A stretch of 64,000 nt of DNA from a virus. Taxonomy: Duplodnaviria > Heunggongvirae > Uroviricota > Caudoviricetes. The stretch covers positions 46,664 to 110,663 of IMG/VR virus record IMGVR_UViG_3300012347_000217. One strand, 5' to 3'. A program made the position numbers and the translations under genes. The notes beneath the pieces were generated by a model. That model was given only the letters and a program-made list of their open reading frames with translations. It was not told the origin of the DNA and searched no databases. Shown here in pieces: positions 38,922 to 44,981 of this stretch (positions within the stretch are counted from its first letter, which is position 1; the number at the start of each line of letters is the position of its first letter).

Positions 38922-39683
38922 ATGGTTACTAAAAAAACAACAACCAAAACTCGTGAAGAATTTATTGAGAACTCTGAGCAGACAACAAGACACCAACCAG
39001 TTTCAAACAGTCTAAAGATTAAATTAGACCACATGCTGACATTCGAGGCTTTGACTTCTAATCAGCAAAAATTCTTTGATGCGTACCGACAAGGTGATTA
39101 CTTCATCGGTCTATATGGATCTCCAGGTGTAGGTAAGACCTTCTTGGCACTATATCGTGGACTCGAAGAAGTGTTAGACAAAACAAATCCGTTCAAGCAA
39201 CTTGTGGTTGTTCGTTCGGCTGTACAGACTAGAGACCAAGGATATGTTCCTGGTACTTTGGATGAAAAGATGGAGATTTACGAAACTCCATACAAAGAAA
39301 TTTGTGAAACATTATTCAAACGTCCTGATGCTTGGGATAGATTGAAGGAGCAAGGCCATGCTAGATTCATTTCTACTACTGCAATTCGTGGGATTTCTAT
39401 TGATGATGCTATTATTGTGGTTGATGAATCGCAATCTATGACCTTCCATGAGTTGTCGTCCGTTATCTCTCGTGTCGGGCACCGCTCAAAGATTATCTTC
39501 ATTGGTGACCTAAAACAGAATGACTTACTCAAGTCCAAGTATGATGTATCAGGTCTCAAAGAGTTCTTGCAGGTTGCAGAATCTATGAAAGAGTACACAC
39601 AAATCACATTCACACCAGATGATATCGTTCGTTCATCACTGGTGAAGTCTTGGATTGTTGCATGTGATAAGTTGGGCTTCTAA
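38922..39683 (+). CDS. phoH: PhoH-like ATPase
   Basis: Walker A GLYGSPGVGKTFLAL, Walker B IIVVDESQ and IFIGDLKQNDL (PhoH GDxxQxDL motif). Confidence 0.8.
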   Translation: MVTKKTTTKTREEFIENSEQTTRHQPVSNSLKIKLDHMLTFEALTSNQQKFFDAYRQGDYFIGLYGSPGVGKTFLALYRGLEEVLDKTNPFKQLVVVRSAVQTRDQGYVPGTLDEKMEIYETPYKEICETLFKRPDAWDRLKEQGHARFISTTAIRGISIDDAIIVVDESQSMTFHELSSVISRVGHRSKIIFIGDLKQNDLLKSKYDVSGLKEFLQVAESMKEYTQITFTPDDIVRSSLVKSWIVACDKLGF

Positions 39684-40345
39684 TGTTATTCAACCATTGT
39701 CCGCCTATGAAACTCCCCGACCTTGTCTCTGCGACAGGTTCGGATGGTAAAAGGTATTATACAACACCATCAGGTGTGAAACTTCCTTCTGTCACGACTG
39801 TGGTTGGAGCCATGAAAAAGGCTTCTATTATGGAATGGCGGAATGCTGTTGGTCCGGAAGAAGCTAATCGTGTATCACGTGCAGCCTCAGGTCGTGGTAA
39901 CCGTGTACATAATCTAGCCGAGAAGTACCTCAGGAATGAGCCGATTCAATGGCTGAAAGAAATGCCTGACTCTACGGTTATGTTCCGTTCCCTCATTCCA
40001 CACATGGAACGTATCAACAACATCCACTACATCGAACAGGCTCTATGGTCTGAGAATGTCGGTATGGCTGGTCGTGTTGACCTGATTGCGGAATGGGACG
40101 GTGTACTGTCGGTAATTGACTGGAAGACTTCATCCAAGGTCAAAACTCTGGCAGATATTCCAGATTACATGGCACAGTGTGTGGCCTATGCAGCGATGTA
40201 TCAGGAACACGTAGGTGTCTCGATTGACCAAATCGTTATTGTCATGGCGGTGGAGCAGGCACCACCCATTATTTTCATTGAGAAGACTGAGGATCATATA
40301 AATACTCTGGTAGAACATATCAAGTATTATAGGAACCAGCAATGA
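39683..40345 (+). CDS. PD-(D/E)xK (YqaJ/lambda-exonuclease-like) nuclease
   Basis: GRVDLIAEWDGVLSVIDWKTS contains D...E.D and the DWK catalytic triad pattern. Confidence 0.55.
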   Translation: MLFNHCPPMKLPDLVSATGSDGKRYYTTPSGVKLPSVTTVVGAMKKASIMEWRNAVGPEEANRVSRAASGRGNRVHNLAEKYLRNEPIQWLKEMPDSTVMFRSLIPHMERINNIHYIEQALWSENVGMAGRVDLIAEWDGVLSVIDWKTSSKVKTLADIPDYMAQCVAYAAMYQEHVGVSIDQIVIVMAVEQAPPIIFIEKTEDHINTLVEHIKYYRNQQ

Positions 40346-41280
40346 CGACACCAGCAGGACAGATATCATTTAATGATATTAACGTTGAACTTGGAGTTAC
40401 GGGAACAACCACACGCACATTCAATGACACAGTGTTGCGTCAACTTTTTGGCCAGACCACAGGAACTGTAGATATTAATACTGGTCGTGGTAAGAACAAA
40501 AACGTGGTCGCCTCAGGCGGTACTGTAACAACGACCGGTGGATATCGTTACCACACATTCCTATCAACAGGAACGTTAAGTGTTACTGGATTACCGGTAA
40601 CACAGTCTTTTGAAGTGTTGGTTGTAGCTGGCGGTGGCGGCGGCTCAGGTAAACGTGGTTCTGGTGGTGGCGGTGGCGGTGTATCATTAACAACACTGTC
40701 TTCGCTTTCTACAGGTAACCACACAGTTAACGTGGGAGCTGGTGGTAGTGGAACAGGTGACGTATTTTCGAAGGGTGGTACAGGCGGAACATCCTCATTT
40801 GTAAGTCCATCGAGTGTAACTCTAGCCAGTAACGGTGGCGGTGGCGGCGGTGGAGGAAGTTCAGGTTCATCAGGTAGCGGTGCATCACCGAACGGTTCTG
40901 GTGCCGGTGGCCGATGGCTTGAACAAGGTGGTAACTACACCACATCTCCTGGTACAGGTAACGGAACAGGTGGTAATGGTGGTTCATACAGCGGCTTCGG
41001 CGGCGGTGGCGGCGGTGGCTCAGGTAATCACAATGGTGGAACTGGACCTTCTGGTGCAGGCGGTGCAGGTAATAGCACATGGTCAGCTTGGGGAACTACT
41101 ACAGGTACCTCAACGGCACCTGGAGCCGGTGGTGATGGTGGTGCCGCATATGGTGGTTCCGCATCTGTTGCAGGCGGCACGAATACAGGTAATGGTGCTA
41201 CTGGCGCAGGTGATAATCCTGGTTGGACTGGTGCAGCCGGTGGTTCAGGCTTTGTTATCGTTCGTTATCCATACAACTGA
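40342..41280 (+). CDS. glycine-rich protein (paralogue of 41691..42647), possible fibre/structural protein
   Basis: N-terminus ISFNDINVELGVTGTT then long GGGGSG/GGTGG tracts; 312 aa. Confidence 0.55.
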   Translation: MTTPAGQISFNDINVELGVTGTTTRTFNDTVLRQLFGQTTGTVDINTGRGKNKNVVASGGTVTTTGGYRYHTFLSTGTLSVTGLPVTQSFEVLVVAGGGGGSGKRGSGGGGGGVSLTTLSSLSTGNHTVNVGAGGSGTGDVFSKGGTGGTSSFVSPSSVTLASNGGGGGGGGSSGSSGSGASPNGSGAGGRWLEQGGNYTTSPGTGNGTGGNGGSYSGFGGGGGGGSGNHNGGTGPSGAGGAGNSTWSAWGTTTGTSTAPGAGGDGGAAYGGSASVAGGTNTGNGATGAGDNPGWTGAAGGSGFVIVRYPYN

Positions 41281-41291
41281 TAGGGAAAAAC

Positions 41292-41633
41292 ATGGCACAT
41301 TTTGCTAAAATTGAAAATAATATTGTAACTCAAGTTATAGTTGCCGAACAGGACGTTATTGACACCTTTCCAGGAACTTGGGTACAAACATCATATAATA
41401 CACTTTTAGGTGAACACAAATTGGGTGGAACACCATTGCGAAAAAACTATGCTGGTATCGGATACACTTACGATTCGGTGCGTGATGCTTTTATTCCACC
41501 AAAAACATATGATAGTTGGATTTTAGATGAAAGTACTTGTTGGTGGAAAGCACCAATTGCATATCCAACCGATGGTAAAGAGTATATTTGGAATGAAACA
41601 ATCCGAAACTGGGTACCTGTCTCAGATACCTAA
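41292..41633 (+). CDS. hypothetical protein following the first Gly-rich gene
   Basis: ATG 41292 (MAHFAKIENNIV) inside track ORF 41223..41633. Confidence 0.45.
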   Translation: MAHFAKIENNIVTQVIVAEQDVIDTFPGTWVQTSYNTLLGEHKLGGTPLRKNYAGIGYTYDSVRDAFIPPKTYDSWILDESTCWWKAPIAYPTDGKEYIWNETIRNWVPVSDT

Positions 41634-41690
41634 AATTTACAAAAGGTAAGTCATGCACTTAACACAAGAACTGTATAAAGGTCTAGATAA

Positions 41691-42647
41691 ATGGCTTTAG
41701 GCACAACAAATATAAGTTTATCATCAATAAATCGTGAATTTGAACGAACTGGAACACAACAGATAACAATGTCTGATACCAGACTCAAAGCTATGGCCGC
41801 AGCGGGCGCAAGCACCAATATTACATTTTCGGGTATGCAGAATAAAGCAGGAATGTGTAACCTGACAATATCAACGGCACAAAGCGTACAATATAATGTG
41901 GCCGCTCAGGCTGCCTCGGCAGGATACAATAGAACATATCAAAAAATTAACGTTGTAGTTAATTCTGGTATCACTGTTTACGGTGGACAAAATGCAAACT
42001 ATCCAGCAGCAATATTATTCAATGGCTTATGGATGGGTGGTGCAAACAATCAACCATACGGAATACAATTAACTAATAATGGTACTATTGTCGGCCAAGG
42101 CGGCGCAGGCGCACAAGGTGCCTATTCATATTCTATTGCCGGTGGCGGAGATTTTGGTGGACCAGGAGCTTCAGGATCTCCATCAATAAGGGCCGAAGGT
42201 TGTACTGTCACTGTAATTAACAATGGTTCAATGGTTGGTGCTTCCGCAGGTGGAGCAGGTGGCCAAGGTTCTGGTGGATTCTCCAGTGGACCATGGAATA
42301 GTGGCGGCGGTGGTGGTGGCGGAGCACCACACGGTGCAGGTGGAGCAGGTGGCGCCGTACAAGCTGGTGGTGGAACAGGAGCATCAGGCGGAACTGCTAC
42401 ATACTCGAATGGTGGCGCAGGCGGTTCTCCAGCATTGAGTGGTGCCGGCGCAGGTTATGCTGGTGGTAATTTTGGTGCTCTTTCTGGAGGAGGCATTCCA
42501 TTGGCCACATACATAGCAAACCTAAATGCAATGACTAGATGTGATGGATATGCACAAACGCCGGCACCTTGCGTCAGCTCCAATGGAATTAGTCCAGGTG
42601 CAATAGTTTGGCAAGTAACAGGAACAAGAATAGGAGTAATATCATAA
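41691..42647 (+). CDS. glycine-rich protein (paralogue of 40342..41280)
   Basis: N-terminus ISLSSINREFERTGTQQI parallels ISFNDINVELGVTGTTT; GGxGG tracts; 318 aa. Confidence 0.55.
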   Translation: MALGTTNISLSSINREFERTGTQQITMSDTRLKAMAAAGASTNITFSGMQNKAGMCNLTISTAQSVQYNVAAQAASAGYNRTYQKINVVVNSGITVYGGQNANYPAAILFNGLWMGGANNQPYGIQLTNNGTIVGQGGAGAQGAYSYSIAGGGDFGGPGASGSPSIRAEGCTVTVINNGSMVGASAGGAGGQGSGGFSSGPWNSGGGGGGGAPHGAGGAGGAVQAGGGTGASGGTATYSNGGAGGSPALSGAGAGYAGGNFGALSGGGIPLATYIANLNAMTRCDGYAQTPAPCVSSNGISPGAIVWQVTGTRIGVIS

Positions 42648-42889
42648 TGGAAAAACAAGTAACATACGAAGTACTACAAGTAGATGAAGTAAATCATTGC
42701 ATGTTGGTAGAATATAGATCCGAAGGTCGTGAATCTATTCAAGTAAGCATGAGAATTCCACTGCAAGGTGAAAATGCAGAATCAGTTATTGCATCATATT
42801 CTCCATTGGATGTTTGGCTTCTGAGAGAAGCCGCTAAACAGACGATTGAAGTTGGTCGAACAGGTACGTTCGGTGGACCACAAGCATAA
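42648..42889 (+). CDS. hypothetical protein following the second Gly-rich gene
   Basis: ATG 42648 (MEKQVTYEVLQV). Confidence 0.4.
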
Positions 42890-42919
42890 ATACCACAATA
42901 ACAATAATAGAGGCAAGTC

Positions 42920-43609
42920 ATGTACTTAACAGAAGAAGAAATCCAACAAAGACAAGATACATTTTTAGAGTTCATCCAAACTATGGCCGACGAGCTTTAT
43001 GAAGGTTTGGATGAAGAATACGAATTGACTGAAGAAGATGCTTATTTGGCATCTATTATGATGGAACATTTCGTAGATAATTACACCCAATTGACACTTA
43101 AAGAATCTGCAACATTGGCGCTAACTGGCCAAGAAGATCCTAACCAAGAACTGTTTGAAGAATTCATTGAAATGGCTCTCGACGAATCTATTGGTGGTGC
43201 AGTTGCTGGTGTCGTTCACGGTATCAAGAATTTACTATCTCGCCGCAAAGCTAAGAAGGCATCCGCAGGTGCAGCCGGCGCAAAAGCCTCTGCTAATGTA
43301 ATCAAAGCAAAAGCAGCCAAGGCAGACAAAGATGCTAAAGGTTCAAAAGGTTTGGTTGGTGTATTCAAGCAAGCCAAGGCTGCTAAATTAGCAGCACGCC
43401 ATGACAAGTCTATCGACAAATCAGCGGCTGCACAGAACGCAGCACGAGCGGCAAGCAGACAACACCGTTCTTCATTGAAAGCACGTGCTAGCCTAAAGAG
43501 CAAAATCGACACTGGTATCTCTAACGTCAAGAAAAAGGTTGTTGGTGCTGTCAAATCTGGTGCAGAGAAGGTTGCTTCCGCAGCAGGTCGTGTCGCAGGT
43601 TCATTCTAA
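42920..43609 (+). CDS. protein with acidic N-terminal half and Lys/Ala-rich histone-H1-like C-terminal tail
   Basis: 229 aa; C-terminal AKKASAGAAGAKASANVIKAKAAKADKDAKGSKG... Confidence 0.5.
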   Translation: MYLTEEEIQQRQDTFLEFIQTMADELYEGLDEEYELTEEDAYLASIMMEHFVDNYTQLTLKESATLALTGQEDPNQELFEEFIEMALDESIGGAVAGVVHGIKNLLSRRKAKKASAGAAGAKASANVIKAKAAKADKDAKGSKGLVGVFKQAKAAKLAARHDKSIDKSAAAQNAARAASRQHRSSLKARASLKSKIDTGISNVKKKVVGAVKSGAEKVASAAGRVAGSF

Positions 43610-43612
43610 GAC

Positions 43613-43641
43613 TTGACAAAGAATTCGGAGTATGTTATACT
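43613..43641 (+). promoter_or_regulatory. consensus sigma70 promoter (TTGACA 43613-43618, 17-nt spacer, TATACT 43636-43641) driving the tmRNA-like locus
   Basis: read directly. Confidence 0.6.
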
Positions 43642-43647
43642 CCGTTT

Positions 43648-43714
43648 CAATGATAGTAAACTTGGTATAAGAAAAGTATTCTGGACGGGGGTTCGAATCC
43701 CCCCATCTCCACCA
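43648..43714 (+). ncRNA. ssrA: tmRNA acceptor piece (T-arm GGGGG-TTCGAAT-CCCCC, 3' acceptor strand CATCTCC, discriminator A, CCA) of a permuted two-piece tmRNA
   Basis: sequence ...TATTCTGGAC GGGGG TTCGAAT CCCCC CATCTCC A CCA ends at 43714, parallels the E. coli tmRNA 3' end; 5' boundary uncertain. Confidence 0.6.
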
Positions 43715-43799
43715 TAAAGCATATTGAGTGTTCTGCAGGACACGGCATTACCAGTAATGGCGCCACTACACAAGATGTAGGTTCAGTATGTTTTATAAT

Positions 43800-43975
43800 G
43801 GGGATGCACTTGGTTTCGACAGGGTAACAAGTACGATATTCGGCTATCCGTCAGAGTTGACGTAAACACTAAATCAAAATAAATGCAAATGACGAAAGTT
43901 ACGCATTGGCAGCCTAAACGCTGACTAGGGTTTTTGACAGTTTGTCCTCGTAACAGAATCAAACTGTCTTTTCAA
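43800..43975 (+). ncRNA. ssrA: tmRNA coding piece (5' acceptor GGGGATG, CACTTGGTTTCGACAGGG, tag ORF 43885-43917 encoding ANDESYALAA)
   Basis: GGGGATGCACTTGGTTTCGACAGGG vs E. coli GGGGCUGAUUCUGGAUUCGACGGG; GGGGATG pairs 7/7 with CATCTCC of the upstream piece including a G3-U70 wobble; GCAAATGACGAAAGTTACGCATTGGCAGCCTAA translates to ANDESYALAA stop; 3' boundary uncertain. Confidence 0.6.
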
Positions 43976-43987
43976 CAGAGGAGAACT

Positions 43988-44545
43988 ATGCGAAGTAAAC
44001 CAATACTTTTTAGCATCGTGTTCTCGGCACTCATCTTCACAGCCGCAATGGTTAACGTCAACTACCACGACTTACCGTTTAAAACTGGCTACAATTCCCT
44101 CAATGAAGAAACACAACGACAGGTCACCTGTCTAGCCGAGAATATTTACTTTGAAGCGGCGCATGAACCGCTCGAAGGAAAGAAAGCAGTAGCTTTCGTA
44201 ACCATCAACCGTGTGCTAACTGGAAATTATGCACCGACTATCTGTGATGTAGTATATCAAAAGAAGGGAAACGTTTGTCAATTCTCATGGTACTGCGATA
44301 ACAAGTTTACCAGTAGAAGGTTGACAATCAAAGAGACTAACCTGTATAATGAGATTCGTGACTTAGCATTACACGTGGTTCTAAACTACGAAAAGTTGAG
44401 TGACGTAACCTATGGTGCAACATTCTATCATGCCGATTACGTAAAACCTAATTGGAAGAAACTTGATAAAGTTGACCAAATCGGTCGTCATATTTTCTAT
44501 AAATCGAAGATTGACGAAATTGACAAAAATAGGAGTTTTATATGA
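43988..44545 (+). CDS. SleB-like cell wall hydrolase with N-terminal signal/anchor sequence (candidate secreted or SAR endolysin)
   Basis: ATG 43988 after RBS AGGAGAA; MRSKPILFSIVFSALIFTAAMVNV hydrophobic N-terminus; CLAENIYFEAAHEPLEGKKAVAFVTINRV matches the SleB hydrolase family; the track start 43934 is a TTG reading through the RNA element. Confidence 0.75.
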   Translation: MRSKPILFSIVFSALIFTAAMVNVNYHDLPFKTGYNSLNEETQRQVTCLAENIYFEAAHEPLEGKKAVAFVTINRVLTGNYAPTICDVVYQKKGNVCQFSWYCDNKFTSRRLTIKETNLYNEIRDLALHVVLNYEKLSDVTYGATFYHADYVKPNWKKLDKVDQIGRHIFYKSKIDEIDKNRSFI

Positions 44546-44760
44546 GCAAAGACGTAATTACCTTTATGGTTTGTGCAACAATCGTTATGCTGGCACTTAT
44601 TGGTGCTGGAGTAATGATGAACTTGAATGACAAAACCAATATGGCCAAGAACATTGAATCGGCTATCAATAAAGGTATTGATCCATTGTCAGTAAAATGT
44701 GCATATGATAGCAGTTCTACTACGACCTGTATTACCTATGCAGCAACAGCGAAAAAATAA
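44542..44760 (+). CDS. small membrane protein (possible holin/spanin-type lysis partner)
   Basis: 72 aa; TM helix FMVCATIVMLALIGAGVMM; ATGA overlap with the hydrolase gene. Confidence 0.45.
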   Translation: MSKDVITFMVCATIVMLALIGAGVMMNLNDKTNMAKNIESAINKGIDPLSVKCAYDSSSTTTCITYAATAKK

Positions 44761-44981
44761 TGCCTACAAAAGAAGAAATTAAAAATTTCAGTGAAATCAT
44801 TGAAAAACGTGTCCTTGAAACTGACGAGGACTATATGGATGCAGTGATTGCCCATTGTGCAGAAACTGGTTTTGAAATTGAATTGGCTGCCACTTTACTG
44901 GCATCACCAATCAAGGCAAAGATTGGTGAAGAAGCACAGGCAATGAATATGATGAAGAAAGTGAATCGTCTACCACTATGA
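44760..44981 (+). CDS. gp33-like late transcription co-activator (tentative)
   Basis: 73 aa; DYMDAVIAHCAETGFEIELAATLLASPIKAKI resembles the T4 gp33 C-terminal region; lies directly upstream of gene 59 as in T4. Confidence 0.4.
   Translation: MPTKEEIKNFSEIIEKRVLETDEDYMDAVIAHCAETGFEIELAATLLASPIKAKIGEEAQAMNMMKKVNRLPL

What the first reader, a model, noticed from the sequence alone, without database searches (positions are those of the whole stretch)
43613..43990. Promoter-driven, circularly permuted (two-piece) tmRNA-like gene encoding tag ANDESYALAA, immediately upstream of a lysin gene
Order is inverted relative to a one-piece tmRNA, matching the two-piece architecture known from alpha-proteobacteria and cyanobacteria.
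- 43687-43714 carries a tmRNA 3' end: T-arm GGGGG-TTCGAAT-CCCCC, 3' acceptor strand CATCTCC, discriminator A, CCA.
- 85 nt downstream, 43800-43824 carries a tmRNA 5' end (GGGGATGCACTTGGTTTCGACAGGG, compare E. coli GGGGCUGAUUCUGGAUUCGACGGG).
- GGGGATG pairs with CATCTCC at all 7 positions including a G3-U70 wobble, which is the alanine identity element.
- An in-frame tag ORF at 43885-43917 (GCA AAT GAC GAA AGT TAC GCA TTG GCA GCC TAA) encodes ANDESYALAA, close to E. coli ANDENYALAA.
- A textbook promoter (TTGACA-17 nt-TATACT) sits just upstream.
- The downstream SleB-like gene starts at 43988 with its own RBS, so there is no room for a conventional one-piece arrangement.

I cannot confirm from memory whether a phage-borne permuted tmRNA with this architecture has been described.
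Basis: partly seen in the sequence, partly recalled or inferred. Interest (0 to 1): 0.9.

Follow-up and report, generated by a model that had tools for sequence, protein, structure and literature searches.

The report
Phage-borne two-piece tmRNA gene
This is a real, intact, circularly permuted (two-piece) tmRNA gene carried by an uncultivated T4-like aquatic phage, but phage two-piece tmRNAs at this same genome position are already published (OM43 phage Melnitz), so it is a new member of a known kind.

Summary
ARAGORN calls a permuted tmRNA with tag ANDESYALAA. Rfam gives beta_tmRNA 132.7 bits (cut-off 84) and tmRNA_permuted 132.2 bits (cut-off 47).

Among 53 distinct homologues from viral contigs:
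- the T-arm, acceptor stem positions 4-6, helix P2 and the PK1 hairpin show compensatory changes;
- G3:U70 never varies;
- the tag codons change synonymously while the peptide is kept;
- a TTGACA-17-TATAAT promoter sits at a fixed distance in 31 of 53.

The window is a T4-like myovirus of the Kyanoviridae type. The gene lies in the order PhoH, PD-(D/E)XK exonuclease, tmRNA, (lysin), gp33, gp59, gp32. The published ssrA of OM43 phage Melnitz lies in the same place. Buchholz et al. 2022 also list permuted tmRNAs in pelagiphages, cyanophages and phiCbK-like phages, so the kind is known.

What is new is modest:
- this copy is beta-type, whereas Melnitz's is alpha-type with a glutamine riboswitch;
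- it marks a large uncultivated clade in which 37 of 43 informative loci carry the gene;
- its 85-nt intervening segment is an exchangeable structured cassette, also found in a phage tRNA array.

Processing, charging with alanine and use of host SmpB are inferred, not shown.

The parts
43613..43641 (+). Sigma-70-type promoter: -35 TTGACA (43613-43618), 17-nt spacer ending in TGT (an extended -10 TG), -10 TATACT (43636-43641). The transcription start is inferred near 43648.
   Evidence: 11 of 12 matches, TG present. In 31 of 53 distinct homologues an 11-12 of 12 match lies at the same distance from the T-arm. The first positions of the Rfam beta_tmRNA model also align here.
43626..43644 (.). 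Palindrome CGGAGTAT-GTT-ATACTCCG overlapping the -10 hexamer, just after the stop codon of the upstream ORF (42920-43609). It may be a terminator hairpin for the upstream gene or an operator; its role is not resolved.
   Evidence: flags it as terminator-like on the minus strand. Palindromes of different sequence lie at the same place in L047, L051, L075 and L080.
43648..43714 (+). Acceptor piece, about 67 nt (5' end inferred). It holds the 5' strands of P2 (43652-43683), the T-arm (43687-43703), the acceptor 3' strand CATCTCC (43704-43710), discriminator A (43711) and an encoded CCA (43712-43714).
   Evidence: Four of five T-arm pairs show changes on both sides among homologues.
43715..43799 (+). 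Intervening segment, 85 nt, predicted to be cut out of the precursor. Its two ends pair (AAAGCAUAUUGAG with UUCAGUAUGUUUU), which extends the acceptor stem, and a three-hairpin junction sits on top. U43799 is the -1 base before the predicted RNase P site.
   Evidence: Fold energy -29.7 kcal/mol, z = -4.15. The same arrangement appears in the fold of the whole precursor. The ends pair in 52 of 53 homologues and the -1 base is U in 52 of 53, although the interiors are unrelated.
43800..43972 (+). Coding piece, about 173 nt (3' end inferred). It holds the acceptor 5' strand GGGGATG (43800-43806), the D-loop analogue CACTTGGTTTCGA (43807-43819), the 3' strands of P2 (43820-43848), the PK1 hairpin (43849-43862), the tag ORF and the 3' hairpin.
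   Evidence: Proximal P2 is 7 bp with 4 covarying pairs, and distal P2 is 5 bp with 3 covarying pairs. The PK1 hairpin occurs as CGTC/GACG, TATC/GATA, CGAC/GTCG, CACC/GGTG, CGGT/ACCG and CATC/GATG.
43885..43917 (+). Tag reading frame GCA AAT GAC GAA AGT TAC GCA TTG GCA GCC TAA, encoding ANDESYALAA plus stop. The resume codon is GCA at 43885.
   Evidence: Codon use among 25 distinct 10-codon tags: Asn by AAC/AAT, Asp by GAT/GAC, Leu by TTG/TTA/CTG/CTA, Ala by GCA/GCT/GCC/GCG, and Ser by both the AGY and TCN families.
43936..43972 (+). 3' hairpin: a 9-bp stem (43936-43944 with 43960-43968) and a conserved loop TCCTCGTAACAGAAT, followed by TTTT (43969-43972). It is the likely 3' end of the coding piece and at most a weak terminator. 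A short pseudoknot, GGG 43928-43930 with CCT 43946-43948, is possible.
   Evidence: All 6 modelled stem pairs show changes on both sides. The 3-bp pseudoknot candidate covaries. The GC-rich terminator hairpin of the bacterial beta model is absent here (alignment).
43988..44545 (+). Neighbouring gene, not part of the RNA: a SleB/Hydrolase_2 cell-wall hydrolase (endolysin) with a hydrophobic N-terminus. Its ribosome-binding site GGAG lies 7 nt upstream of the ATG.
   Evidence: Pfam PF07486, 77.5 bits. PHROG endolysin. It follows the tmRNA in most related viral contigs.

Best explanation
The locus is a functional ssrA gene of the circularly permuted kind, carried by a lytic T4-like (Kyanoviridae-type) aquatic myovirus.

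Proposed mechanism, with the basis of each step:
- Host RNA polymerase with sigma-70 starts at the early-type promoter (43613-43641) and makes a precursor of about 325 nt. This is inferred from the conserved promoter.
- In the precursor the acceptor stem is extended by pairing between the two ends of the 85-nt intervening segment. This is predicted and conserved.
- RNase P cuts 5' of G43800, after U-1. 3' trimming stops at the encoded CCA 43714, releasing the intervening segment. This is inferred by analogy with Caulobacter two-piece tmRNA and is not shown here.
- The acceptor piece (about 67 nt) and the coding piece (about 173 nt) stay together through the 7-bp acceptor stem and helix P2.
- G3:U70 and discriminator A make the molecule a substrate for host alanyl-tRNA synthetase.
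- With SmpB, which is not found in this window and is presumably supplied by the host, the charged RNA enters ribosomes stalled on broken mRNA. Translation resumes at GCA 43885 and adds ANDESYALAA, a degradation tag of the ClpXP type.

The likely benefit to the phage is to keep ribosomes free, and to recycle truncated proteins, while host mRNA is being destroyed early in infection. That benefit is inference.
For: - Detectors: ARAGORN calls a permuted tmRNA. Rfam gives beta_tmRNA 132.7 bits against a cut-off of 84, and tmRNA_permuted 132.2 bits against 47.
- Structure counts on 21 distinct relatives: 79% of cells are paired, against 42-52% when partners are slid. 23 pairs have changes on both sides, and 0 of 500 shuffles reach the observed covariation score.
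- Acceptor stem: in homologues found through the lysin gene, and so not selected on acceptor sequence, the stem occurs as GGGGATG, GGGCCTG, GGGCCAG, GGGGGTG, GGGGCTG or GGGGGAG. G3:U70 is present in all 53. Full complementarity and discriminator A were search criteria in that extraction, so they are not independent evidence.
- Tag: synonymous codon turnover, including serine from both codon families, with the peptide kept.
- Promoter conserved in position.
- Intervening segment: ends pair in 52 of 53 and U-1 is present in 52 of 53.
- Genomic place: the gene is flanked by phage genes in the order PhoH, exonuclease, tmRNA, lysin, gp33, gp59, gp32 in dozens of independent contigs. The same place holds the annotated ssrA in phage Melnitz.
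- Prevalence: 37 of 43 related loci with enough upstream sequence carry the gene.
Against: - There are no expression, processing or charging data.
- A minimum-energy co-fold of the two pieces does not recover P2.
- The second stem of PK1 could not be resolved.
- No SmpB was found in the 64-kb window.
- There is no canonical terminator after the RNA, so the 3' end is uncertain and read-through into the lysin gene is possible.
- The host is unknown, so the phage tag and tmRNA type could not be compared with the host's.
Confidence: 0.9

Rival explanations
1. The RNA is a decoy that binds host SmpB or alanyl-tRNA synthetase and so blocks host trans-translation. This is what has been proposed for the tRNA-like-domain-only molecule of mycobacteriophage DS6A.
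For: Hudson et al. 2014 note that the DS6A sequence is little more than the tRNA-like domain, and that a similar molecule strongly inhibits tmRNA. No phage SmpB is seen in the window, so the phage RNA must compete for the host protein.
Against: The whole mRNA-like part is present. The tag peptide is conserved through synonymous changes in 25 distinct tags. The resume-codon context, the PK1 hairpin and the 3' hairpin are kept through compensatory changes. A decoy would not need any of these.
Confidence: 0.04
2. It is a passenger: a piece of host ssrA picked up by a temperate ancestor through imprecise excision, or bacterial DNA wrongly binned as viral, with no role in the phage.
For: tmRNA genes are common integration sites for prophages and genomic islands, and fragments of ssrA occur in prophages (Buchholz discussion).
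Against: - The gene is complete, has its own conserved promoter and lies between T4-type replication and transcription genes in dozens of independent viral contigs.
- It is kept in 37 of 43 informative related loci that are only 61-81% identical in the neighbouring lysin.
- Its helices evolve by compensatory change.
- The 25-nt pattern covering its acceptor 5' strand and D-loop region (GGGGATG-N4-TGGTTTCGACAGGG) was found in no proteobacterial genome among 185,579 species representatives.
Confidence: 0.02
3. The main role is in cis. The structured RNA would act as a processed 5' leader or stabiliser for the lysin-gp33 transcript that follows, with trans-translation secondary.
For: There is no strong terminator between the RNA and the lysin gene. 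In Melnitz the ssrA is described as lying in one operon with gp33, with a riboswitch at its 3' end. The 3' hairpin motif is duplicated around inserted genes in L052 and L075.
Against: The distance to the lysin and the genes in between vary (in many relatives the tmRNA lies 0.6-2 kb upstream), while the RNA itself stays intact. Alanine identity and the tag peptide are conserved, which a leader would not require.
Confidence: 0.04

Closest known systems
ssrA of Methylophilales (OM43) phage Melnitz EXVC044M, MZ577097 45984-46436 (Buchholz et al. 2022, PMC9004378)
   Same: A two-piece, permuted tmRNA in a T4-like Kyanoviridae phage. It lies just after an early-type promoter, in the same gene order: PhoH, PD-(D/E)XK nuclease, ssrA, gp33, gp59, gp32.
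   Different: - Melnitz scores as alpha_tmRNA (106.7 bits), with T-loop GGCAGUA, acceptor GGGGGCG, a 14-residue tag ANDNYVPVDYALAA and a glutamine riboswitch at the 3' end.
- The window scores as beta_tmRNA, with T-loop UUCGAAU, tag ANDESYALAA and no riboswitch.
- Here a lysin gene and a small ORF lie between the RNA and gp33.
- The proteins are only 33-57% identical, and the RNA shows no nucleotide match in GenBank phages.
Betaproteobacterial two-piece tmRNA, Rfam RF01850 (Sharkady and Williams 2004, cited in PMC9004378 and PMC11915505)
   Same: It is the best-scoring model over its full length, 1-331, including the promoter region, P2, the PK1 hairpin, the tag context and the hairpin loop CCUYGUAAC. 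The tag belongs to the ANDExFALAA family.
   Different: - The host here is a phage genome.
- The final GC-rich terminator hairpin of the model is missing.
- The intervening segment is about 85 nt with a branched fold.
- The pattern GGGGATG-N4-TGGTTTCGACAGGG was found in no proteobacterial species representative.
Caulobacter crescentus two-piece tmRNA (Keiler, Shapiro and Williams 2000; cited in PMC9004378). From my own knowledge, this is the case in which processing into two RNAs was shown experimentally.
   Same: The permuted gene order, a single precursor, excision of an intervening segment, and two pieces held together by the acceptor stem and P2.
   Different: It is alpha-type and chromosomal. 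Nothing has been shown experimentally for the phage gene.
Other phage tmRNAs: one-piece in mycobacteriophages of the Bxz1 type and in Bacillus phage G, and tRNA-like domain only in DS6A (PMC4131195). Permuted calls are listed for HTVC008M, Mosig, S-CAM1, S-CAM3, S-CRM01, S-SSM7 and phiCbK-like phages (Table S1 of PMC9004378).
   Same: Phage-borne ssrA, mostly in large lytic phages. The permuted forms are concentrated in aquatic phages.
   Different: Different hosts, different subtypes and, where known, different loci. None is similar enough to match the window by blastn.

Membership tests
Two-piece (circularly permuted) tmRNA, Rfam RF04321 / RF01850 | Score at or above the curated cut-off of the covariance models | tested here: met
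   beta_tmRNA 132.7 bits against 84; tmRNA_permuted 132.2 bits against 47, full model length. ARAGORN calls it permuted.
Two-piece (circularly permuted) tmRNA, Rfam RF04321 / RF01850 | Permuted gene order: T-arm, acceptor 3' strand and CCA lie upstream of the acceptor 5' strand and the tag ORF, on one strand and behind one promoter | tested here: met
   43687-43714 precedes 43800-43917. There is a single promoter at 43613-43641.
Two-piece (circularly permuted) tmRNA, Rfam RF04321 / RF01850 | Seven-bp acceptor stem with G3:U70, discriminator A and CCA (alanine identity) | tested here: met
   7 of 7 pairs with G43802:T43708. G3:U70 is present in all 53 distinct homologues while positions 4-6 covary.
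Two-piece (circularly permuted) tmRNA, Rfam RF04321 / RF01850 | Inter-piece helix P2 supported by covariation | tested here: met
   Proximal P2 has 7 bp, 99% paired, with changes on both sides. Distal P2 is GATAG/CTATC in the window, GGTAG/CTACC in L119 and GGTTGT/ACAACT in most others. A plain minimum-energy co-fold does not predict it.
Two-piece (circularly permuted) tmRNA, Rfam RF04321 / RF01850 | Pseudoknot PK1 upstream of the resume codon | tested here: inconclusive
   The hairpin 43849-43862 covaries strongly, with six stem variants. For a second stem there is only a correlated change, AGAG...ACT against ACAG...AGT.
Two-piece (circularly permuted) tmRNA, Rfam RF04321 / RF01850 | Tag reading frame starting at an alanine resume codon and ending in a hydrophobic ...LAA-type C-terminus plus stop, under selection at the peptide level | tested here: met
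   ANDESYALAA plus stop. Synonymous turnover with the residues kept in 25 distinct tags.
Two-piece (circularly permuted) tmRNA, Rfam RF04321 / RF01850 | Processing of the precursor into two stable RNAs, charging with alanine, and SmpB-dependent trans-translation | not testable with these tools
   The only indirect signs are paired ends of the intervening segment and U at -1 in 52 of 53. No SmpB was found in the window (a weak test).
Betaproteobacterial lineage of two-piece tmRNA (descent from a betaproteobacterial host gene) | Closer to betaproteobacterial ssrA genes than to alpha or cyanobacterial ones, with an identifiable bacterial donor | tested here: inconclusive
   The beta model is the best clan hit, and it is also the best in 16 of 20 relatives. 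No proteobacterial genome holds the acceptor and D-loop pattern. Some close relatives carry an alpha-like T-loop and D-region on the same backbone. No tree against bacterial sequences could be built.
ssrA locus of Melnitz-like / Kyanoviridae myophages (PMC9004378) | Position between the PhoH/PD-(D/E)XK nuclease genes and the gp33-gp59-gp32 genes, behind an early-type promoter | tested here: met
   Window gene order. Melnitz annotation. Promoter.
ssrA locus of Melnitz-like / Kyanoviridae myophages (PMC9004378) | Glutamine riboswitch at the 3' end of ssrA (the authors call it common but not defining) | tested here: not met
   No riboswitch hit in the window, either at the gathering score or at E <= 1 around the locus. 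The Melnitz copy gives 52.8 bits.

The most novel reading that the evidence does not exclude
The ssrA locus between the exonuclease and gp33 genes may be one old, vertically inherited feature of Kyanoviridae-type myophages that evolves on its own track. Two things would then follow.

- Its tRNA-like domain switches between beta-like (UUCGA T-loop), intermediate (UGCRAAU) and alpha-like (GGCAGUG) T-loop and D-loop modules on a common backbone.
- Its intervening segment acts as a swap-in cassette. In this window that cassette is a structured 77-nt element shared with a phage tRNA/GOLLD array. In other phages it carries small ORFs.

If so, the tmRNA type of a phage would not be a reliable record of past hosts, contrary to the host-transition argument made for Melnitz. 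The excised segment could also be a third functional product of the gene.
Probability: 0.25. Interest if true: 0.5.

Novelty: new member of a known kind. Interest (0 to 1): 0.3.

Why it matters
It adds a well-supported, beta-type example to the small set of phage two-piece tmRNAs. It also shows that the gene is close to universal in a large uncultivated clade of T4-like aquatic phages: 418 viral-contig stretches encode relatives of the neighbouring lysin, and among the 79 best-matching of them 37 of the 43 loci with enough upstream sequence carry the gene.

This argues that ribosome rescue is a selected phage function rather than an accident of gene capture. The clade's 53 distinct sequences are a compact comparative set for tmRNA structure, because they carry many compensatory changes.

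The same locus holds an alpha-type gene in Melnitz and beta-type or mosaic genes here. That bears on the use of phage tmRNA type as a marker of host history. None of this changes what is known about how tmRNA works.

Tried and rejected
- **Nucleotide search of GenBank phages.** blastn of the 401-nt locus found nothing, and megablast of 12 kb matched only the ssb gene at about 73%. There is no cultured close relative. The lysin is at most 43% identical to any GenBank phage protein.
- **Genome scan for the bacterial donor.** The pattern GGGGATGNNNNTGGTTTCGACAGGG returned only nine Firmicutes contigs.
- **ARAGORN alone as a census.** It missed 8 of 14 tmRNAs that Rfam then found. My first estimate, about two thirds of loci, was too low and was corrected to 37 of 43.
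- **MAFFT alignment of 23 sequences.** It misaligned the window's distal P2 strand, so the counts for helices 1-2 understate the pairing. I used the Rfam alignment and a separate covariation scan instead.
- **Minimum-energy co-fold of the two pieces.** It did not give P2.
- **Source of the window.** The lysin protein is not on record in the contig index.
- **Spread of the intervening-segment element.** A 24-mer found nothing in metagenome contigs, and a 21-mer found only the same three viral contigs.
- **Supplements of the tmRNA database paper.** They hold no breakdown for phages.
- **SmpB.** tblastn with an E. coli sequence written from memory gave only chance-level hits.
- **Rejected readings.** I considered and rejected an attP or host-fragment origin and a decoy role; see the rival explanations.
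Full report
**1.

- T-arm GGGGG-TTCGAAT-CCCCC at 43687-43703.
- Acceptor 3' strand CATCTCC at 43704-43710, discriminator A, CCA ending at 43714.
- An 85-nt gap, 43715-43799.
- GGGGATG at 43800-43806, followed by CACTTGGTTTCGACAGGG.
- The frame GCA AAT GAC GAA AGT TAC GCA TTG GCA GCC TAA at 43885-43917.

ARAGORN reports exactly one RNA gene in the 64-kb window: a permuted tmRNA with tag ANDESYALAA. Rfam reports beta_tmRNA at 132.7 bits (cut-off 84, E = 2.9e-40, model 1-331) and the general tmRNA_permuted model at 132.2 bits (cut-off 47). Parsing the Rfam alignment gives the pairs in window coordinates:
- the 7-bp acceptor stem, including G43802:T43708 (G3:U70);
- the 5-bp T-arm;
- about 20 pairs of P2 between 43652-43683 and 43820-43848;
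- a 4-bp hairpin at 43849-43862;
- a 3' hairpin.

The promoter is TTGACA, 17 nt with TG, then TATACT, at 43613-43641. Taken alone it is not statistically remarkable, since the region holds 2 promoter-like sites against 3.0 +/- 2.0 in shuffles.

**2. Context**

The window is a T4-like myovirus.
- PHROGs and Pfam identify PhoH (38922-39683), a PD-(D/E)XK exonuclease (39683-40345), a Hydrolase_2/SleB-type lysin (43988-44545), the late-transcription coactivator gp33 (44760-44981, PF16805), the helicase loader gp59, a deoxyribonucleotidase and gp32.
- gp32 is about 60% identical to those of cyanophages P-SSM2 and P-SSM5, and 58% identical to that of Pelagibacter phage HTVC008M, which is classified in Kyanoviridae.
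- There is no close relative among GenBank phages. The tmRNA locus finds nothing by blastn, 12 kb around it matches only ssb at 73%, and the lysin is at most 43% identical to any GenBank phage protein.
- Window G+C is 42.6%.

**3. Relatives**

Exact-pattern scans of IMG/VR with the acceptor and T-arm sequences gave 36 loci, most with permuted tmRNAs. A search with the lysin protein gave 418 related stretches, of which the 80 best were fetched. In these contigs the order PhoH, exonuclease, (variable genes), tmRNA, lysin, small ORF, gp33, gp59, gp32 recurs.

ARAGORN found a permuted tmRNA upstream of the lysin, on the same strand, in 29 of the 43 loci that hold at least 3.3 kb of upstream sequence. 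Rfam then found it in 8 of the 14 apparent negatives, so the figure is 37 of 43. The conserved loop of the tmRNA 3' hairpin is also present in many loci that are cut off too early to show the whole gene.

**4. Evidence that the RNA is functional**

- *Helices.* On 21 distinct sequences the Rfam structure is 79% paired, against 42-52% when the partners are slid by 1-3 columns. It has 23 pairs with changes on both sides, and 0 of 500 shuffles reach the observed covariation score. The 10 closest sequences give the same picture.
- *T-arm.* It changes on both sides at 4 of 5 pairs.
- *Acceptor stem.* It is invariant in the pattern-selected set, which is an ascertainment effect. In the lysin-selected set it occurs as GGGGATG/CATCTCC, GGGCCTG/CAGGTCC, GGGCCAG/CTGGTCC, GGGGGTG/CACCTCC, GGGGCTG/CAGCTCC and GGGGGAG/CTCCTCC. 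The third pair is G:U in all 53 distinct sequences. Full complementarity and discriminator A were criteria of that extraction.
- *Closest relative.* L047 has a lysin 81% identical, the same tag and the same promoter, yet differs from the window at acceptor pairs 4 and 5 and at T-arm pair 2, each on both sides.
- *P2.* An independent covariation scan recovers proximal P2 (7 bp, 4 covarying pairs), distal P2 (5 bp, 3 covarying pairs) and the T-arm.
- *PK1 hairpin.* It occurs with six different complementary stems. A second PK1 stem is suggested only by a correlated change (loop AGAG with downstream ACT, against ACAG with AGT), and I leave it open.
- *Tag.* Among 25 distinct 10-codon tags, Asn, Asp, Phe/Tyr, Leu and the three alanines are kept through synonymous changes, and serine at position 4 uses both the AGY and TCN codon families. 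This shows that the tag is read as protein.
- *Promoter.* 31 of 53 homologues match the consensus at 11 or 12 of 12 positions, with the -10 hexamer ending 42-47 nt before the T-arm.
- *A negative result.* A plain minimum-energy co-fold of the two pieces finds the acceptor stem and T-arm but not P2.

**5. The intervening segment**

In the window it folds into a long stem formed by its two ends, topped by a three-hairpin junction (-29.7 kcal/mol, z = -4.15). In the fold of the full precursor this stem continues the acceptor stem.

Across the 53 homologues the segment is 24-196 nt long with unrelated interiors. Even so, its ends pair in 52 of 53, and the base before G1 is U in 52 of 53. That is the shape expected of a tRNA-like precursor cut by RNase P and trimmed back to CCA. 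The processing itself is inferred by analogy with Caulobacter two-piece tmRNA.

**6. Comparison with what is known**

- Buchholz et al. [quoted passage not shown]
- They counted 53 ARAGORN-permuted tmRNAs among 18,146 phage genomes, 50 of them aquatic. They also found them in 17 of 47 Melnitz-like contigs.
- Their Table S1 lists HTVC008M, Mosig, several cyanophages and phiCbK-like phages.
- The Melnitz record shows PhoH, PD-(D/E)XK nuclease, two small ORFs, ssrA, gp33, gp59 and, further on, gp32. That is the same place as in the window.
- The Melnitz RNA differs in type. It scores as alpha_tmRNA at 106.7 bits, has tag ANDNYVPVDYALAA and carries a glutamine riboswitch at 52.8 bits. The window has no riboswitch.
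- Earlier surveys knew only one-piece phage tmRNAs. The 2025 tmRNA database holds 79 phage sequences.

The kind of object, and even its locus, are therefore published. This copy is a new, beta-type member from an uncultivated clade.

**7. Origin and host**

This remains unresolved.
- The pattern GGGGATG-N4-TGGTTTCGACAGGG occurs in no proteobacterial genome among 185,579 species representatives, only in nine Firmicutes.
- Sixteen of 20 relatives score best as beta-type, three (all with long intervening segments) score marginally as alpha, and one reaches the cut-off only for the general permuted model.
- Five further relatives, and L075, carry an alpha-like T-loop (GGCAGTG) and D-region (CAGGATCGATTGGG) on a backbone that is otherwise like the beta-type copies.
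- This leaves room for in-place remodelling or recombination of the tRNA-like domain. I could not build a tree against bacterial sequences.

**8. Mechanism and verdict**

The best explanation (confidence 0.9) is a working ssrA. It is transcribed early from a sigma-70-type promoter and cut into an acceptor piece of about 67 nt and a coding piece of about 173 nt. It is then charged with alanine and used, with host SmpB, to free stalled ribosomes and tag the truncated products with ANDESYALAA.

- Shown here: the anatomy, the conservation, the compensatory changes, the selection on the tag, and the shared gene order.
- Inferred: the processing sites, the charging, the dependence on SmpB, and the benefit to the phage.
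- Rivals: a decoy role, a passenger fragment and a cis-acting leader are each disfavoured by the conserved tag peptide and by the retention of the whole RNA.

Interest is low to moderate (0.3). The side observations (the cassette-like intervening segment, the mosaic T-loop and D-region, and the near-universal presence of the gene in a large clade) are the parts worth following up.

Noticed in passing
window 43717-43793; L126 7068-7346; L127 3786-4075; L125 1087-1163: The 77-nt core of the intervening segment is 100% identical in L126 and differs by one base in L127, although the mature tmRNA parts of those two contigs are only about 84% identical to the window. It is also 97% identical to a spacer that directly follows tRNA-Lys(ttt) in a tRNA array of another viral contig, IMGVR_UViG_3300017978_000250. 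It looks like an exchangeable structured cassette. Only these three viral contigs hold it, and metagenome contigs holds none.
   Followed up: partly
L125 70-535 (minus strand): A GOLLD RNA (RF02032, 208 bits) with an embedded tRNA-Lys lies about 0.6 kb from the copy of the intervening-segment element, in the same tRNA array.
   Followed up: no
L085, L118, L023/L025-L027, L083 (intervening segments of 115-196 nt): Long intervening segments carry ATG-started ORFs that begin 11-14 nt into the segment. L085 has 60 aa ending at the segment's end, and L118 has 43 aa. L023 and L025-L027 have 66-81 aa running into the coding piece, and L083 has 72 aa; the L023 and L083 ORFs run in frame into the tag. 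These may be small genes nested inside a permuted tmRNA gene, or chance ORFs in AT-rich sequence.
   Followed up: partly
L052/L053/L055 3362-3679; L057; L058; L075 3469-3939: These relatives have an alpha-like T-loop (GGCAGTG) and D-region (CAGGATCGATTGGG) on a P2, PK1 and tag backbone that matches the beta-type copies. Their best clan hit is alpha_tmRNA at only 53-68 bits. More generally, the T-loop and D-region change together: TTCGA goes with GGTTTCGAC, and TGCRAAT goes with TAG(T/A)TTCGAC.
   Followed up: partly
L052 3640-3680 and 3945-3985; also L053, L055, L063, L075: The tmRNA 3' hairpin with loop CCTCGTAACAGAAT is duplicated on either side of an ORF inserted between the tmRNA and the lysin gene. 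It may act as a recombination or terminator module. The window has a single copy.
   Followed up: partly
window 44321-44350: A perfect sigma-70 consensus (TTGACA, 18 nt, TATAAT; 12 of 12) lies inside the lysin ORF, upstream of the small ORF at 44542 and of gp33.
   Followed up: no
window 43626-43644: The palindrome CGGAGTAT-GTT-ATACTCCG overlaps the -10 hexamer of the tmRNA promoter, right after the upstream gene's stop codon. Palindromes of different sequence lie at the same place in L047, L051, L075 and L080.
   Followed up: partly
loci L052, L053, L055, L057, L058, L060, L061, L078: ARAGORN failed to call permuted tmRNAs that Rfam detects at 101-126 bits. Censuses of phage two-piece tmRNAs that rely on ARAGORN alone are likely to undercount.
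   Followed up: yes
L022, L030, L036 (ACTG after the acceptor strand); L019-L021, L034 (ACCT): Some phage copies do not encode the full CCA end, so they would need the host CCA-adding enzyme. The window encodes CCA.
   Followed up: no
window 40342-43609: Three ORFs lie between the exonuclease gene and the tmRNA: one with a Gly_rich_2 domain (40342-41280), and two with no Pfam family (41691-42647 has only a weak PHROG hit of unknown function; 42920-43609 has no hit at all). Of the three, 41691-42647 has a partial counterpart (134 aa) only in L003 and the other two have none in any relative compared. This is a variable insertion spot.
   Followed up: no
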